IMG/VR virus record: IMGVR_UViG_2671180778_000014
Coordinates: 1-35,491 of that record
DNA length: 35,491 nucleotides
Strand: one strand, 5' to 3'
Source of the DNA: a virus
Taxonomy: Duplodnaviria; Heunggongvirae; Uroviricota; Caudoviricetes
Part shown: positions 15,362 through 28,544 of the stretch, piece after piece
Numbering within the stretch: position 1 is the stretch's first letter
Layout: each line of letters begins with the position of its first letter
Notes under the pieces: model-generated
What the model saw: only the letters and a program-made list of their open reading frames with translations
What the model was told of the DNA's origin: nothing
Databases searched by the model: none
Position numbers and translations under genes: made by a program

Positions 15362-15390
15362 AAAAAAGCCCCACCATTAAGGCAGGGCTT
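15362..15390 (-). terminator. rho-independent terminator (member of a conserved terminator family)
   Basis: minus-strand AGCCCTGCC-ttaat-GGTGGGGCT followed by TTTTTT; near-identical copies at 21315 and 28517. Confidence 0.6.
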
Positions 15391-15397
15391 AAAATTA

Positions 15398-15514
15398 ATT
15401 CTTAGCCTTGCGGCCTCGTTTTGCTGTGGCTTTCGCCGTAACTTCTTCTACTTCTGGAATCACCACCGCTTCATGTTCCGGTAGTGGTTCCGGTTCGGGA
15501 AGTTCTTCGTTAGT
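15398..15514 (-). other. in-frame post-TGA extension of the tail tube gene (putative readthrough segment)
   Basis: 39 sense codons in frame after the TGA at 15515-15517, no ATG; translates TNEELPEPEPLPEHEAVVIPEVEEVTAKATAKRGRKAKN; ends TAA at 15395-15397 just before the terminator. Confidence 0.45.
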
Positions 15515-15988
15515 TCATCCGGCAGTGAAGATTTGCTGTTTCAGCGGAGCACCATCAACAGCAAAGGTAAACTCTTTAGTTACCACTTCTTCATCGCCAC
15601 CGTTCATAGCAACTTTAGAAATAAAGCCGTTGAAAGCGGTGCGAATACCAGTCTGTTTTCCGGCGTCAACATAATACTCTATTTTGATTTGAATACGCGT
15701 ACCATCCTCGGCAGCTTTGATCAGTTTTTCATGTACCGCATCACCTGGGATGTAGTTAACGGTCAGAGTCAGATCAGGAACGTTCAGTTTACCTACCAGT
15801 TTACGGTTATACTGAGAAGAGAAGGATTTAACTTCTACAGTACCGCGCTCGATACCAGTTTCAGGGAAACCAGCACACTCTTTAATTTCTTCGTATGCTT
15901 CATCAGCAAGATCGGTGTTAGTGGTATCAGCGTGATAGAACAGACTTACCAGACCACCAGTAAAAATATCTTTAAATTGTTGAGACAT
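15515..15988 (-). CDS. major tail (tube) protein
   Basis: 157-aa ORF with strong RBS TAAGGGGT, position upstream of G/T chaperones and tape measure, followed by a terminator. Confidence 0.55.
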   Translation of the reverse strand: MSQQFKDIFTGGLVSLFYHADTTNTDLADEAYEEIKECAGFPETGIERGTVEVKSFSSQYNRKLVGKLNVPDLTLTVNYIPGDAVHEKLIKAAEDGTRIQIKIEYYVDAGKQTGIRTAFNGFISKVAMNGGDEEVVTKEFTFAVDGAPLKQQIFTAG

Positions 15989-16044
15989 AGAATTACCCCT
16001 TAATTAAAATTGTTATTATGGGGGAACTAGTCCCCCGACTTTTA

Positions 16045-19000
16045 TTATTTAGTTGCTTTGAGTTCGGCAATCTCTTTAGTCAATGCTTCAATCTTAGCTT
16101 GATATTTGGCGTCCATTTCCTGAATAGCTTTAATAATCAAGGCATTAACAGCAGAGTTAGAAATAGTCTTAATTGCTTCTGGATTTTCTGGATCTTCGGT
16201 GGATTGAATACCTACTGCTTCCGGCAATACTTCTTCCAGATCCTGAGCAATAATACCTACTTCGCGTTTAATCACTGTGTCATCGGAAAGAGATTTAACT
16301 TTATCGTAGGTGTAGACTTTCAGGGAGTTTACTTTCTCTAATGCGCCGTCCTGTAATTCTTCCTTGTTAATCTTCAAACGGGAGTCAGAGCGAATGTAAA
16401 CATCGTTAAAGCTACCGTTACGACCTGCGGTAAAGTCACCAGCAGCGTTAAAGTCAAAGTTAGTATCATGAACATGGAGACGAACAAGAGCGTTACCGAT
16501 AGTACCGCTAGGAACGTGCACACCCATTGCTGCAATGTGATATTGACCCCAATGAGTAGCTTTCCAGATGTTATGTGCTGAATCTTTTGATTGGGGGCAA
16601 TCAACTTGCAAACCGGAAGCACGGTCACGCCAACTAGACCAGCTACCACCAGAAACGTTACCACGAATCAAACCTTTATCAGACCCGCCGACGCTACCAG
16701 ATTCAAGATGAATCATCTTATCCGCAAGTTTCCACGTCTGGGCTTGTTTCTGACCACGGAAGCGAATAACACCAGCATCATCGGAATACATCAAGCCTAG
16801 TTCCAATCCGTTAGGGTCTCTAAACCAGATGTGCTTATTGCCAGTGCGCTTAAATTCAATATCAGCACCGTTCAGTGTGATATTACCGCCAGCATGGATC
16901 GCTTTAGGTCTTAGTGTACCGTTAACAGCAAACTCAATTAATTCAGTGCCAGGACCACCCGCACGTTGAGTATACCAATGCCAACCGCTTTCGTCCGCAC
17001 ATTCGAATACTTGTTGACGACCCTCATTACCAGGTCCAGCACCCCATGCACGAATATTAAAGCTAGATGCAGATGTATTTTTACCCCATGTGATCTTACC
17101 TTCTGCGGTTAAGTCACCACGGAAGTGAGCAAGCAAACCGCCAGATCCGTTGCGTTCAGTGGTAAAGTGAGTTCCGCTAGTGTCCTGGAATTGCAAAACG
17201 TTATATCGGTTAGCGTTACTATTCCCCCAATGGTTAATCGTGAAAGAATCCATTGACTGATTACCACCCGCAGAGAAAGTAAGCAATCCTTTTTCTAAGA
17301 ATACGTTGTTGCTAAAACGGGCAGCACGGCTATCTCTTTCAAGAATTAATGCACCTTCGTTACCATCACCACCTAAAGTAACTTTACCAGTATTCATATC
17401 GTAAATGAACGGTCTGTTTCCATTCCAGCCACCCAATTTATCATCTTCGGCAGTAGAAAGAAGATAAACTTTAACGCCGTCATTACGCCAGAATGCACCA
17501 TATTTACCGTAGATCATGCGGTAAGCGTCGCTATTCATTGAGATGAATTGAGCGTTAGTATAAACTCGTTTTGTGTTACCGGTTGCAAGTTCGATCTGTC
17601 CGTCGATGTGGTGACGAATAGAAGTACCACCTACATCACTATACCATTCAAAAACGTTAGTATCAGCATTACCATAACCGAACCATCCTTGACGAGTAAT
17701 ATTTCCGGTGCGGTTATCCTGAAAAGCGATATGATTAGACTGACCAGCCGGACGACGCAAGGTAATAACATTACTACCGCCATTTAACAGCATTCGACCA
17801 GAAAGAATATTACCTTTATGAGTCCCAGCAATAGAGCTACTAGATTCAACGGTTAGAATCTCCTGAGCATCTGTACTACCCGTGGCGAGTCGATAAGTAG
17901 AACCCTGAACCGTCTCATGCCAGATCATTTCATTATAGTTACTACGGAATTTACGAATATATTTCCGTCCAGTACCTCTATCATTGCTTAGATGAACAAT
18001 ATCATAACTATTTTGTGTGTTATCGTCAAAACTCAACACACCACGTTTATTTTCTGTGTTAAAAAGAGTTACGTTGCGACCACCGATAACACCAACGGAA
18101 GGTTTAATTAACGTGGCTTCCGGCGTATCATAAACCGTCAAACTTACATAAACAGATTTCCCATATTCGACAATAACGTTATCGGTATAACGCTGATATT
18201 TCACGTAGATATCATAGTTATCACCGGAAGTATTGACAGCAAATACCTCAAAATCTTTGTTTGTATTTCTACGGTATGCAATTACGTTAAGACCTTTAGG
18301 TCTATCGTTACCACTACGCAGAAGAATTTCTACTACGTCAACCTGATCATATGCCGTAACGTTGTAACCATTACCACCATGAATACGGAAAAACACACTA
18401 CGCCCGTTTTGTGGAATTGTTGCGGTTGCCAATTTGAAATATGCAGATACGTTTTCGCTAGAATTGGGAACAGACATAACGACGTTTTTAACAAACATCT
18501 TATCAACTTCGGCTTTGGTGTATGCACCAATCTCGCCAGGAGTCGGCTTATCACCTTCGTGATACATCTTATAGCTAAAGTTCTTCTGTCCTTCTCTATC
18601 AAAACCATAGGTTTCAACACGAGATCCACCAGACGCATAACGGAAAGTAAATCCGCGACCGTGCGCTTTACCGGCAGAATGAGGAACATTAAGAGTTAGA
18701 TCTAAAAGACCATCTTGTCCATTAGTTCGGAAAGCACCAAAGTAGTTAAGATCTCGTGATGTCTGGTCTTCCAGATAGTTAGCTGTCTTGCTTAACAGAT
18801 ACCCACCATGCTTAGTATTGGTATTCTTCTTGATGTAAAGAGCATCATTGCTACCTTCAATACCATCAATTCGTTTGTTAGCGGCTGCAATTGCGGCATC
18901 AGTAGAAGATTTATTCTGGTCTACCTTGTTGTTAATTGCGGTATGGTTGCTATTAACAGTGCCAGTAAGATTGGTAATCTTAGTATCCGCGTCTTTCTTA

Positions 19001-28211: not shown

Positions 28212-28239
28212 AGGTGAACATTCACTTTAATTTGGAGAA

Positions 28240-28473
28240 ATGACTATGACTACTAAAGCTACTCGCGGTCGCCCTGCCCGTTTTAACGCTGAACAGATGG
28301 CTGATATTGCCTACGCTTACTATACAGCGGATCGCGGGAAGGAAGCGAAAGAACAGATTCTTAGTGAACATGGGATCTCAATCGCCCAATTCTATAAGAA
28401 TATGAAGAAGTTAGACATTAAATTCTATGTTCAGATCGGTGATGGTCAGATCGTAGAAGCAACAGGTTTTTGA
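28240..28473 (+). CDS. small HTH protein resembling a terminase small-subunit N-terminal DNA-binding domain
   Basis: 77 aa; TRGRPARFNAEQMADIAYAYY ... GISIAQFYKNMKK fits the GRPxK(F/Y) + HTH pattern of some small terminase N-termini (Sf6 gp1-like as recalled). Confidence 0.5.
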   Translation: MTMTTKATRGRPARFNAEQMADIAYAYYTADRGKEAKEQILSEHGISIAQFYKNMKKLDIKFYVQIGDGQIVEATGF

Positions 28474-28488
28474 GTTTTGATTCTCTTT

Positions 28489-28513
28489 GCCACTCTTCGG
28501 AGTGGCTTTTTTT
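28489..28513 (+). terminator. rho-independent terminator
   Basis: GCCACTC-ttcg-GAGTGGC hairpin followed by TTTTTTT. Confidence 0.6.
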
Positions 28514-28516
28514 ATG

Positions 28517-28544
28517 CCTATAGAAAACAAAAAAGCCCCGCACT
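28517..28544 (-). terminator. rho-independent terminator (conserved family)
   Basis: minus-strand AGCCTCGC-ctagt-GCGGGGCT followed by TTTTTTG; third copy of the AAAAAAGCCCC...GGCT module. Confidence 0.5.

What the first reader, a model, noticed from the sequence alone, without database searches (positions are those of the whole stretch)
15362..28544. Family of near-identical intrinsic terminators (AAAAAAGCCCC...GGCAGGGCT) reused at three sites
Three terminator hairpins share the same sequence module: after the tube gene (15362), after the capsid gene (21315) and after the Rha-nuclease gene (28517). Placement right after the two most abundant structural genes suggests attenuation that sets the ratio of major to minor proteins. 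The shared sequence suggests duplication of a regulatory cassette together with the readthrough extension.
Basis: seen in the sequence. Interest (0 to 1): 0.35.

Follow-up and report, generated by a model that had tools for sequence, protein, structure and literature searches.

The report
Copied leaky-stop tail plus terminator cassette
The look-alike terminators after the capsid and tail-tube genes of this E. coli prophage are the ends of one duplicated ~160-base cassette that also carries a leaky UGA stop and a short in-frame protein tail, while the third terminator is an ordinary operon-end hairpin that only resembles them.

Summary
All three hairpins are real. They are the three best terminator-like sites in the region, and all lie on the minus (coding) strand. 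They are not one family of three.

**T1 (after tube) and T2 (after capsid)** have identical 9-bp stems. They are the 3' ends of a homologous cassette, 109 of 150 aligned bases identical. Its layout is TGA-ACT, then 39 or 42 in-frame codons, TAA, 5 nt, hairpin and U6.
- In about 60 related prophages the TGA, the following A and the reading frame never change, although the extension length varies from 28 to 45 codons.
- TGAACT is the same hexanucleotide as the Qβ coat read-through site.
- More distant relatives have the cassette only on the capsid gene, or on neither gene. They still carry a terminator, of different sequence, after both genes.
- So the terminator positions are conserved, and the tube cassette is a derived copy of the capsid one.

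**T3** ends a regulatory (Rha) operon at a convergent junction. It is one of three alternative hairpins found at that site in relatives, and its stem type is common in unrelated phages.

The attenuation idea is plausible but untested. The ordinary part is the terminators. The more interesting part is the likely UGA read-through tail on both major virion proteins, which is not annotated in the RefSeq copy I checked.

The parts
15362..15389 (-). T1: intrinsic-terminator hairpin AGCCCTGCC-TTAAT-GGTGGGGCT plus U6, 5 nt after the TAA of the tube extension. The next gene (gp38-like adhesin) starts at 15346.
   Evidence: -17.6 kcal/mol, z = -3.6. Stem invariant in all related loci.
15395..15517 (-). 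Tube read-through cassette, coding part: TGA (15517-15515), then 39 in-frame codons TNEELPEPEPLPEHEAVVIPEVEEVTAKATAKRGRKAKN, then TAA (15397-15395).
   Evidence: TGA-ACT and the frame are conserved in 18 unique relatives, with lengths of 36, 39 and 41 codons and pN/pS 0.43.
15518..15988 (-). Tail tube (major tail protein) gene, 157 aa up to the TGA.
   Evidence: phrog_158 major tail protein, E 7e-22. Pfam Phage_TTP_11 borderline.
21315..21341 (-). T2: intrinsic-terminator hairpin AGCCCTGCC-TAAC-GGTGGGGCT plus U6, 5 nt after the TAA of the capsid extension. The next gene starts at 21284.
   Evidence: -17.2 kcal/mol, z = -4.0. Present at this site in all 31 capsid loci, with loop variants and one G.U to G-C change.
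21347..21478 (-). Capsid read-through cassette, coding part: TGA (21478-21476), then 42 in-frame codons TPVEPSEPSPDLGEENLIPEPEEESQTVKAKATAKKQRKTKE, then TAA (21349-21347).
   Evidence: TGA-A(C/A)T and the frame are conserved in 17 unique relatives, with lengths of 28-45 codons and pN/pS 0.74.
21479..23479 (-). Prohead protease - scaffold - HK97-type major capsid fusion gene, 667 aa up to the TGA.
   Evidence: Pfam Peptidase_S78 and Phage_capsid.
28529..28554 (-). T3: operon-end terminator AGCCTCGC-CTAGT-GCGGGGCT plus U6, 4 nt after the TGA of the 156-aa Rha/nuclease-like ORF. It shares only the hairpin type with T1 and T2.
   Evidence: -13.3 kcal/mol, z = -2.6. One of three allelic hairpins at this site in relatives. 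The gene upstream is absent from 32 relatives.
28489..28513 (+). Plus-strand terminator GCCACTCTTCGGAGTGGC plus U7. It ends the plus-strand ORFs 27606-28473 and faces T3, so this is a convergent junction.

Best explanation
**What it is.** T1 and T2 are Rho-independent terminators on the coding (minus) strand, inside the structural-gene cluster of a ~35-kb E. coli prophage integrated in hicB. Each is the last element of a paralogous ~160-nt cassette attached to the 3' end of a major virion-polymer gene. The cassette reads: leaky UGA in the Qβ-type context UGA-ACU, an in-frame extension of 39-42 codons, UAA, 5 nt, a 9-bp hairpin and U6. The extension is an acidic Pro/Glu-rich linker followed by a conserved VTAKATAKK-type basic tail.

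**How it most likely works.**
- Shown: the anatomy of the cassette, its conservation, and the duplication.
- Inferred: the hairpins stop part of the transcripts after the capsid gene and again after the tube gene. That gives more message for the two high-copy proteins than for the downstream minor proteins. Termination must be incomplete, because the following genes start 14-30 nt after the U-tract.
- Inferred: a few per cent of ribosomes decode the UGA with Trp-tRNA(Trp). A minority of capsid and tube subunits would then carry the flexible basic tail, probably on the outer surface of the virion.

**Origin.** The tube copy is derived. The capsid cassette, terminator included, replaced an older 'TAA + different terminator' end of the tube gene.

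**T3.** T3 is a separate, ordinary operon-end terminator at a convergent junction. It resembles T1 and T2 mainly because AGCC...GGCU-U6 hairpins are a generic type in enterobacterial phages.
For: **Hairpins and strand.**

**Homology of the two cassettes.** The cassettes align from TGA to U-tract, 109/150 nt identical.

**Conservation in relatives.**
- TGA, the following A and the frame are invariant in about 60 loci, giving 35 unique extension sequences.
- All extension lengths are multiples of 3, although there are eight length classes.
- The +1 and +2 frames are closed in all of them.
- The UAA lies 5 nt from the hairpin in all but one.

**Stop-codon usage.** The window's genes use TAA in 28 of 33 cases. 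Only capsid and tube use TGA followed by A.

**Read-through context.** The Qβ read-through hexanucleotide is UGAACU, read through at 3-5% in E. coli (PMC13517186). UGA read-through in E. coli is a competition between Trp-tRNA(Trp) and RF2 (PMC10570021). The window has no phage tRNA and no Rfam element.

**Direction of the duplication.** E. coli lineages L307-L310 keep the capsid cassette, but their tube gene ends TAA + AGCCATCCTTCGGGGTGGCT. Salmonella L311/L312 have no extension on either gene. The TTAAT loop allele occurs at the capsid site in L309 and L054.

**Positional conservation of the terminators, with sequence turnover.** Seen in DCP80, Salmonella and Edwardsiella.

**T3.**
Against: - No transcript or protein data were available. 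Termination efficiency, read-through level and the existence of the extended proteins are all inferred.
- The capsid extension evolves nearly neutrally outside its core (pN/pS 0.74).
- A weak promoter-like site (9/12 match) lies at 19711-19682, upstream of the fibre gene. The tube gene may therefore not depend only on read-through of T2.
- If late transcription is antiterminated, the hairpins may do little during lytic growth.
- The hybrid hairpin AGCCCTGCCTAGTGCGGGGCT at the capsid site of L205/L268 means T3-type and T2-type hairpins may exchange. 'T3 is unrelated' is therefore not proven.
- The exact T1/T2 stem occurs in unrelated phages, so hairpin identity alone carries little weight.
Confidence: 0.72

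Rival explanations
1. All three hairpins are independent, convergent terminators. They look alike only because any good E. coli terminator is a GC-rich stem followed by a U-run, and no duplication is involved.
For: The stem type is very common. More than 120 viral contigs match AGCCYYGCC-N3-7-GGGGCTTTTTT, and only 2 of the 121 matches inspected are from this family. The exact T1/T2 stem is found after unrelated genes. Site 3 carries three different hairpins in relatives.
Against: For T1 and T2 the homology continues about 130 nt upstream, through the extension to the TGA-ACT. Lineages without the tube extension have a different tube terminator. Convergence remains a good explanation for T3 only.
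Confidence: 0.1
2. The hairpins act mainly as 3' stabilisers rather than attenuators. Transcripts ending or processed at them are protected from 3' exonucleases, so capsid and tube messages outlast the rest of the operon. The protein ratio is then set by RNA stability, not by termination frequency.
For: The same anatomy (stable hairpin at the 3' end of the two high-copy genes) fits this equally well. Positional conservation with sequence turnover does not distinguish the two readings. That terminator hairpins stabilise upstream RNA is established general knowledge.
Against: The U6 tract directly after every hairpin is the signature of termination and is not needed for stabilisation. The two mechanisms are not exclusive.
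Confidence: 0.1
3. The open frame after the TGA is not translated. It is conserved as RNA (a spacer, a Rho-loading site or a regulatory RNA), or it is the relic of a recently truncated longer protein, and only the terminator matters.
For: No protein evidence exists. pN/pS of the capsid extension is 0.74. A 40-codon open stretch after a stop is not rare by chance (one search lists others). The RefSeq (PGAP) annotation of the one related E. coli copy I inspected ends both genes at the TGA.
Against: - Eight length classes, all in frame, with the other two frames closed in 35 of 35 unique sequences.
- Invariant TGA + A in a genome that otherwise uses TAA in 85% of genes.
- The same peptide core VTAKATAKK on two unrelated genes.
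- BLASTP aligns part of the extension (...PEHEAVVIPE) with the constitutive C-terminal tail of the Edwardsiella tube protein.
- No Rfam family matches the window.
Confidence: 0.15
4. The UGA is recoded by another route: selenocysteine insertion, a phage or host suppressor tRNA, or a ribosomal hop or frameshift. In this reading it is not near-cognate Trp read-through.
For: A CCCCCGATTTGGGGG hairpin lies about 24 nt after the capsid UGA (sequence).
Against: That hairpin is deleted in the 28-codon capsid allele and absent from the tube cassette. The window has no SECIS or other Rfam hit and no tRNA gene. The extension is in frame, so no frameshift is needed. UGAACU is the Qβ site, where plain read-through is established.
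Confidence: 0.03

Closest known systems
Intra-operon intrinsic terminators after major structural genes, e.g. T7 Tφ downstream of capsid gene 10 (own knowledge)
   Same: A hairpin plus U-tract directly after the most abundant structural gene. Genes downstream still need read-through transcription, so termination is expected to be partial and to raise the ratio of major to minor proteins.
   Different: Here there are two such sites, after capsid and after tube, with identical stems. They would be read by host RNA polymerase. Activity is not measured.
Qβ coat protein / A1 read-through protein (UGA read-through; PMC13517186)
   Same: A single UGA ends the coat gene, followed by the identical hexanucleotide context UGAACU and an in-frame extension. 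Read-through of a few per cent gives a minor, C-terminally extended virion protein. No suppressor tRNA is needed.
   Different: Qβ is an ssRNA phage, and its extension is a 196-aa folded domain essential for infection (own knowledge). Here the host is a dsDNA tailed prophage, the extension is 36-45 aa and of low complexity, and it sits on two different genes.
Listeria phages PSA, A118 and A500: long and short forms of both major capsid (cps) and major tail (tsh) proteins by programmed frameshifting (PMC5009743)
   Same: The same pair of genes, major capsid and major tail, each yields a minor C-terminally extended form by recoding at the 3' end of the gene.
   Different: The mechanism there is +1 or -1 frameshifting. 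Here the extension is in frame behind a stop codon. The two extensions here are homologous to each other and share a terminator, which is not described for the Listeria phages.
T7/T3 capsid proteins 10A/10B (-1 frameshift extension; PMC5009743)
   Same: A minor capsid species with a short C-terminal extension. The T7 extension is not an Ig-like domain either.
   Different: Frameshift rather than read-through, and the capsid only.

Membership tests
Rho-independent (intrinsic) terminator | GC-rich stem-loop that folds much better than shuffled sequence | tested here: met
   -17.6, -17.2 and -13.3 kcal/mol; z = -3.6, -4.0, -2.6; 8-10 pairs, 6 of them G-C.
Rho-independent (intrinsic) terminator | Run of U directly 3' of the stem on the transcribed strand | tested here: met
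   U6 follows all three stems on the minus strand. The plus-strand complement lacks a U-run, so the sites are unidirectional.
Rho-independent (intrinsic) terminator | Lies just downstream of a stop codon, and its position is kept in relatives even when the sequence changes | tested here: met
   4-5 nt after the stop. Terminators of different sequence sit at the same two positions in DCP80, Salmonella and Edwardsiella relatives. Three hairpin alleles occur at site 3.
Rho-independent (intrinsic) terminator | Measured termination of transcription (3' ends at the U-tract) | not testable with these tools
   No transcript data were available.
One paralogous terminator family of three members | Homology that extends beyond what hairpin constraints alone would give | tested here: not met
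   Met for T1 and T2 (109/150 nt across the whole cassette). Not met for T3: hairpin only, generic stem type, allelic replacement in relatives.
Programmed UGA stop-codon read-through (Qβ type) | A single in-frame UGA followed by an open frame that stays in frame across relatives | tested here: met
   35 unique sequences, all in frame, eight length classes, other frames closed.
Programmed UGA stop-codon read-through (Qβ type) | Conserved leaky stop context | tested here: met
   TGA-ACT or TGA-AAT in all relatives. The Qβ site is UGAACU (PMC13517186). Only these two of 33 window genes have TGA + A.
Programmed UGA stop-codon read-through (Qβ type) | Extended protein detected, with Trp at the UGA position | not testable with these tools
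   Needs virion mass spectrometry or a reporter assay. The one 'fused' database protein (P0001) comes from gene calling that read the TGA as a sense codon; its DNA has TGA.
Frameshift-derived long forms of capsid and tail proteins (Listeria PSA/A118 type) | The extension lies in the +1 or -1 frame and is reached at a slippery site | tested here: not met
   The extension is in frame 0 directly behind the stop. The +1 and +2 frames are closed.
Ig-like or other folded decoration domains added to virion proteins | Recognisable folded domain in the extension | tested here: not met
   No Pfam family matches the window's extensions. Only a sub-threshold AT_hook hit (14-15 bits against a cut-off of 17.4) appears, and only in GRPPKAK alleles of relatives.
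Selenocysteine recoding | SECIS hairpin a fixed short distance after the UGA | tested here: not met
   No Rfam hit. The only candidate hairpin is missing from the tube cassette and from the short capsid allele.

The most novel reading that the evidence does not exclude
The cassette is a portable 'leaky stop + display tail + terminator' unit that recombination can move between structural genes, and its two halves are coupled. In this reading, a ribosome that has read through the UGA finishes at the UAA only 5 nt from the hairpin. There it covers the 5' arm and prevents the hairpin from forming. Read-through of translation, which in E. coli depends on physiology, would then also set read-through of transcription into the minor-protein genes. 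Such a unit would be a new kind of translation-coupled attenuator in a tailed phage. The same unit would decorate head and tail with one basic peptide.
Probability: 0.1. Interest if true: 0.75.

Novelty: new variant of a known kind. Interest (0 to 1): 0.45.

Why it matters
- **The terminators are ordinary.** Partial terminators after the major capsid and tail genes are a familiar way to set the ratio of structural proteins.
- **The cassette is the worthwhile part.** This is a conserved candidate for programmed UGA read-through in a dsDNA tailed phage of E. coli. It uses the same hexanucleotide as Qβ, sits on both the capsid and the tube gene, and was copied from one gene to the other together with its terminator.
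- **Possible consequence.** If the extended proteins exist, stop-codon read-through would join frameshifting as a route to minor decorated virion subunits.
- **Annotation gap.** The RefSeq annotation of the related copy I inspected stops at the TGA. The prophage occurs in about 1% of complete E. coli genomes.
- **Tractable test case.** It would show how recoding signals and regulatory hairpins travel as a module.
- **A side question.** Capsid and tube terminators resemble each other within a genome, but differ between genomes, in three separate relatives. This hints at concerted evolution of regulatory hairpins, which could be tested on larger phage collections.

Tried and rejected
- **tblastn of the extension peptides against 50,697 phage records:** no match. 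The queries were short and of low complexity, so this is uninformative.
- **Species-representative bacterial genomes scanned with the tube protein:** no relative found.
- **Degenerate DNA pattern for TAKATAK in viral contigs:** mostly noise. 33 of 123 hits were this family. It did yield two useful leads, the L205/L268 hybrid hairpin and the L298 head protein.
- **'Fused' 198-aa tube + extension protein P0001:** it looked like a natural TGG allele. Its DNA has TGA, so the protein comes from gene calling that read TGA as a sense codon.
- **Literature:**
  - No paper found on UGA read-through in capsid or tube genes of dsDNA phages.
  - A hicB-prophage lead (LF82 paper) was irrelevant.
- **Phage-encoded suppressor tRNA, SECIS or any Rfam element:** none found.
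- **Third PE-rich segment at 3899-4008, suspected to be another extension:** it lies in an ordinary ORF behind a different terminator.
- **AT-hook reading of the basic tail:** sub-threshold, and only in some alleles of relatives, not in the window.
- **Mobile REP-like element reading of the hairpins:** considered and rejected. Copies occur on one strand only, always directly after a stop codon and followed by a U-tract.
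Full report
**1. The observation**

Genes in this part of the window run on the minus strand. All three sites are hairpin + U-tract elements on that strand.
- T1: AGCCCTGCC-TTAAT-GGTGGGGCT-U6, at 15389..15362.
- T2: AGCCCTGCC-TAAC-GGTGGGGCT-U6, at 21341..21315.
- T3: AGCCTCGC-CTAGT-GCGGGGCT-U6, at 28554..28529.

They are the three top-ranked terminator-like sites in 10000-29999. They fold at -17.6, -17.2 and -13.3 kcal/mol, with z-scores of -3.6, -4.0 and -2.6 against shuffles. A degenerate family pattern is expected zero times by chance in the window. The other strong terminators in the window have unrelated sequences. So the hairpins are real and the resemblance is real. 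T1 and T2 share identical stems, including two adjacent G.U pairs. T3 matches T2 at only about 16 of 22 hairpin positions.

**2. What the window is**

It is a ~35-kb E. coli chromosomal prophage inserted in hicB, next to a large serine recombinase gene (996-2690). About 1% of complete E. coli genomes (55 of 5426) carry related DNA. Only its fibre gene resembles sequenced phages at the DNA level. The nearest sequenced phage by protein is Escherichia phage DCP80, at 40-45% identity.

The gene order on the minus strand is:
- terminase (27518-25614)
- a 164-aa ORF with a weak head-tail joining match (25541-25047)
- portal (25036-23525)
- protease-scaffold-capsid fusion (23479-21476), then T2
- head-tail genes
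- a 277-aa tube-like protein (20578-19745)
- gp34/37-like fibre (19668-16045)
- 157-aa tail tube (15988-15515), then T1
- gp38-like adhesin (15346-14840)
- chaperones, then tape measure (14106-11674)
- tip proteins

**3. T1 and T2 are the ends of a longer duplicated cassette**

Both the tube and the capsid ORF end in TGA-ACT. Each continues in frame, for 39 and 42 codons respectively, to a TAA that lies 5 nt before the hairpin.
- Tube extension: TNEELPEPEPLPEHEAVVIPEVEEVTAKATAKRGRKAKN
- Capsid extension: TPVEPSEPSPDLGEENLIPEPEEESQTVKAKATAKKQRKTKE

The two cassettes align from the TGA to the U-tract, with 109 of 150 aligned bases identical (family D8, 66). Site 3 shares nothing beyond the hairpin.

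**4. The extension behaves like coding sequence reached by read-through**

I collected about 60 related loci from assemblies and viral contigs.
- The stop is always TGA, and the next codon is always ACT or AAT.
- The extension is always in frame with the main gene, and the second stop lies 5 nt from the hairpin in all but one locus.
- Among 17 unique capsid and 18 unique tube extension sequences there are eight length classes (28-45 codons), all multiples of three. The +1 and +2 frames carry stops in all 35. Pooled pN/pS is 0.74 for capsid and 0.43 for tube, around a nearly invariant core V(T/K)AKAT(A/V)K(K/R).
- A contig with a different capsid C-terminus (...VVQKKVD) carries the same TGA + extension.
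- Of 33 plausible genes in the window, 28 end in TAA and 5 in TGA. Only capsid and tube have TGA followed by A.
- The window encodes no tRNA and matches no Rfam family, SECIS elements included.
- The read-through site of the Qβ coat gene is the same hexanucleotide, UGAACU, read through at 3-5% in E. coli (PMC13517186).
- UGA read-through in E. coli is a competition between Trp-tRNA(Trp) and RF2 (PMC10570021).

From this I infer that a few per cent of capsid and tube subunits are made with a Trp plus this tail. That has not been shown directly. The RefSeq (PGAP) annotation of the related copy in E. coli strain H2 ends both genes at the TGA. One database protein that appears to fuse tube and extension comes from gene calling that read the TGA as a sense codon; its DNA has TGA.

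**5. Direction of the duplication**

- E. coli prophage lineages whose tube protein is 58-73% identical (L307-L310) end the tube gene in TAA. It is followed by a different terminator (AGCCATCC-TTCG-GGGTGGCT) and no extension. Their capsid gene keeps TGA + extension + AGCCCTGCC...GGTGGGGCT.
- Salmonella relatives have no extension on either gene.
- The TTAAT loop that marks T1 occurs at the capsid site in L309 and L054.
- A 28-codon capsid allele (NNEELPEEIPVVTAKATAKK...) begins like the tube extension (TNEELPE...).

The simplest reading is that the capsid cassette, terminator included, was copied onto the end of the tube gene in the window's lineage, and that the two copies have since exchanged sequence.

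In two relatives (L012, L031) a further copy of the hairpin alone sits between the T-like chaperone gene and the tape-measure gene. The window lacks it.

**6. Are they attenuators?**

A terminator follows the capsid gene and the tube gene in every relative examined, even where the hairpin sequence is different.

| Relative | After capsid | After tube |
|---|---|---|
| DCP80 | AAGGGAGCC-TTCG-GGTTCCCTT | GGGACC-TTCG-GGTCCC |
| Salmonella | AGCCACTCC-TTCG-GGGGTGGCT | AGCCGTCC-TTAT-GGGCGGCT |
| Edwardsiella | AGCCACCC-TACG-GGGTGGCT | AGCCACCC-TCCG-GGGTGGCT |

Position is conserved while sequence turns over, which is good comparative evidence for function. The next genes start 14 nt (T1) and 30 nt (T2) after the U-run. 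Promoter-like sites are not enriched (28 found against 40.8 expected). Downstream genes therefore most likely depend on transcripts that pass the hairpins, which makes them partial terminators.

That is inference, for three reasons. One weak promoter-like site lies at 19711-19682. An antitermination system cannot be excluded. And a role as RNA 3' stabilisers fits the same anatomy.

**7. T3 is a different thing**

- It lies 4 nt after the stop of a 156-aa Rha/nuclease-like ORF. It faces a plus-strand terminator at 28489-28506 that ends ORFs 27606-28473. This is a convergent junction outside the structural operon.
- That 156-aa gene has no homologue in any of 32 related loci.
- In those relatives the terminator follows the 277-aa Rha homologue directly. 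Three alternative hairpins occupy the same flanks: GCCCCTGAATTTCAGGGGC (the most frequent), the T3 type (6 loci) and CGCCCGGCGCATAATTGCGCTGGGC (8 loci).
- The pattern AGCCYYGCC-N3-7-GGGGCTTTTTT hit more than 120 viral contigs. Only 2 of the 121 matches inspected are from this family. The AGCCTCGCC...GCGGGGCT (T3) type was among the most frequent in that sample.

The T3 resemblance is therefore best explained by a generic hairpin type. One caveat remains. Two contigs carry a hybrid (AGCCCTGCC-TAGT-GCGGGGCT) at the capsid site, so some exchange between hairpin types inside this phage group is possible.

**8. What the tail might do (inference only)**

The extension is an acidic, proline-rich linker ending in a lysine/arginine-rich tail. 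No Pfam domain matches it. Alleles of relatives ending KK(V/A)GRPPKAK give a sub-threshold AT_hook hit.

From own knowledge, C-terminal additions to HK97-fold capsid proteins (T7 10B) and to lambda-like tube proteins (the gpV Ig-like domain) are exposed on the outside of the virion. The tube family profile phrog_158 is 376 positions long, and this protein matches only positions 15-157. This fits family members that carry extra C-terminal parts. I therefore expect a few tails per head and per tail tube, displayed outward, possibly sticking to polyanionic surfaces. This is the weakest part of the account.

The Edwardsiella tube protein has a constitutive tail (...YHMNVIPEAVAAKEK) that BLASTP aligns with part of the extension. 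This suggests such tails are an old feature of the family.

**9. Comparison with known systems**

- The terminators meet every testable criterion of intrinsic terminators. They work like the well-known terminator after T7 gene 10 (own knowledge).
- The read-through arrangement matches Qβ coat/A1 in stop codon, context and layout. It sits, however, in a dsDNA tailed prophage and on two genes.
- The closest functional parallel is Listeria phages PSA, A118 and A500, which make long forms of both capsid and tail proteins (PMC5009743). Those use frameshifting, which is excluded here.
- I found no report of UGA read-through in capsid or tube genes of tailed phages in the searchable library. That library is incomplete.

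**10. Verdict**

- The duplication idea is supported for two of the three sites.
- The attenuation idea is plausible and backed by positional conservation, but it is untested.
- The terminators themselves are ordinary.
- The attached leaky-stop tail cassette is a new variant of a known kind and is the part worth an experiment.

Noticed in passing
window 14840-15346 (-) and 16045-19668 (-): The gp38-like adhesin gene (Gp38_N, phrog_1121) is separated from the gp34/37-like fibre gene by the tube gene, its extension and T1. Relatives without the tube cassette lack the adhesin gene at this place (L309), or have it before the tube gene (Edwardsiella L313). The 3' end of the tube gene looks like a recombination hot spot.
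   Followed up: partly
window 19745-20578 (-): A second, 277-aa protein also matches the major-tail-protein family phrog_158 (E 9e-9). The phage therefore has two tube-like paralogues. Which one forms the tube was not settled.
   Followed up: no
window 28559-29029 (-): The 156-aa Rha + DUF559/nuclease-like ORF upstream of T3 has no homologue in any of 32 related prophage loci. It appears to be an insertion specific to this copy.
   Followed up: partly
L033-L063, about 10 nt after the Rha homologue (e.g. L033 3752; L065 28640-28660): Three unrelated hairpins alternate as alleles at the same terminator position, between the same flanks (TAATAATTTTT...TTTTTG). The function is kept while the sequence is swapped.
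   Followed up: yes
L012 4880-4906; also L031: A further copy of the T1/T2-type hairpin (AGCCCTGCCTTTATCGGTGGGGCT + U6), without any extension, sits between the T-like chaperone gene and the tape-measure gene. It is absent at window 14107-14117.
   Followed up: yes
L001 (phage DCP80) 7903-7924, 13711-13726, 18185-18204; L313 (Edwardsiella) after capsid and tube: In DCP80 and in the Edwardsiella relative, the capsid and tube terminators resemble each other within the genome but differ from those of the window. This hints at concerted evolution of these hairpins.
   Followed up: partly
L298 1789-2631 (-): An unrelated major head protein (phrog_422, E 1e-65) ends in ...AKAEVTAKATAKK, directly followed by a terminator. 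This is the same peptide core as the extension, fused here without a stop. The hit was selected by the search pattern, so it may be a coincidence.
   Followed up: partly
L313 8001-8528: The Edwardsiella tube protein carries a constitutive C-terminal tail (...YHMNVIPEAVAAKEK) that BLASTP aligns with the VIPE part of the window's tube extension. Salmonella, Providencia and Proteus relatives end in short basic tails (GRK, LRK, ARK, VKEK).
   Followed up: partly
relatives, e.g. L041, L053, L307 capsid extension: Alleles of the capsid extension ending AKK(V/A)GRPPKAK give a sub-threshold Pfam AT_hook match (E about 0.03). The window's own tails (KKQRKTKE, KRGRKAKN) do not.
   Followed up: yes
window 21420-21440 (-): A CCCCCGATTTGGGGG hairpin lies about 24 nt after the capsid UGA, inside the extension. 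It is missing from the 28-codon allele and from the tube cassette, so it is probably not required for read-through. A stimulatory role was not tested.
   Followed up: partly
window 3899-4008 (-), 22688-22918 (-), 32980-33296 (+): Several other ORFs contain Glu/Pro/Val-rich low-complexity stretches that produce weak direct repeats with the extension region. This is a compositional habit of the phage, not further copies of the cassette.
   Followed up: partly
L065 15716-16189 and 21585-23591 (RefSeq NZ_CP028733): The RefSeq (PGAP) annotation of this copy ends the tube and capsid genes at the TGA, so the conserved extensions are unannotated in it. The flanking genes show the prophage splits hicB, between ydcR and hicA/yncJ.
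   Followed up: yes
window 14118-14797 (-): The tail-assembly-chaperone pair (102 aa with a TAC-like match, 113 aa with a weak Phage_tail_T match) is called as two separate ORFs with a 29-nt gap. It does not have the usual overlapping G/GT frameshift layout. Relatives show variable gene calls here.
   Followed up: no
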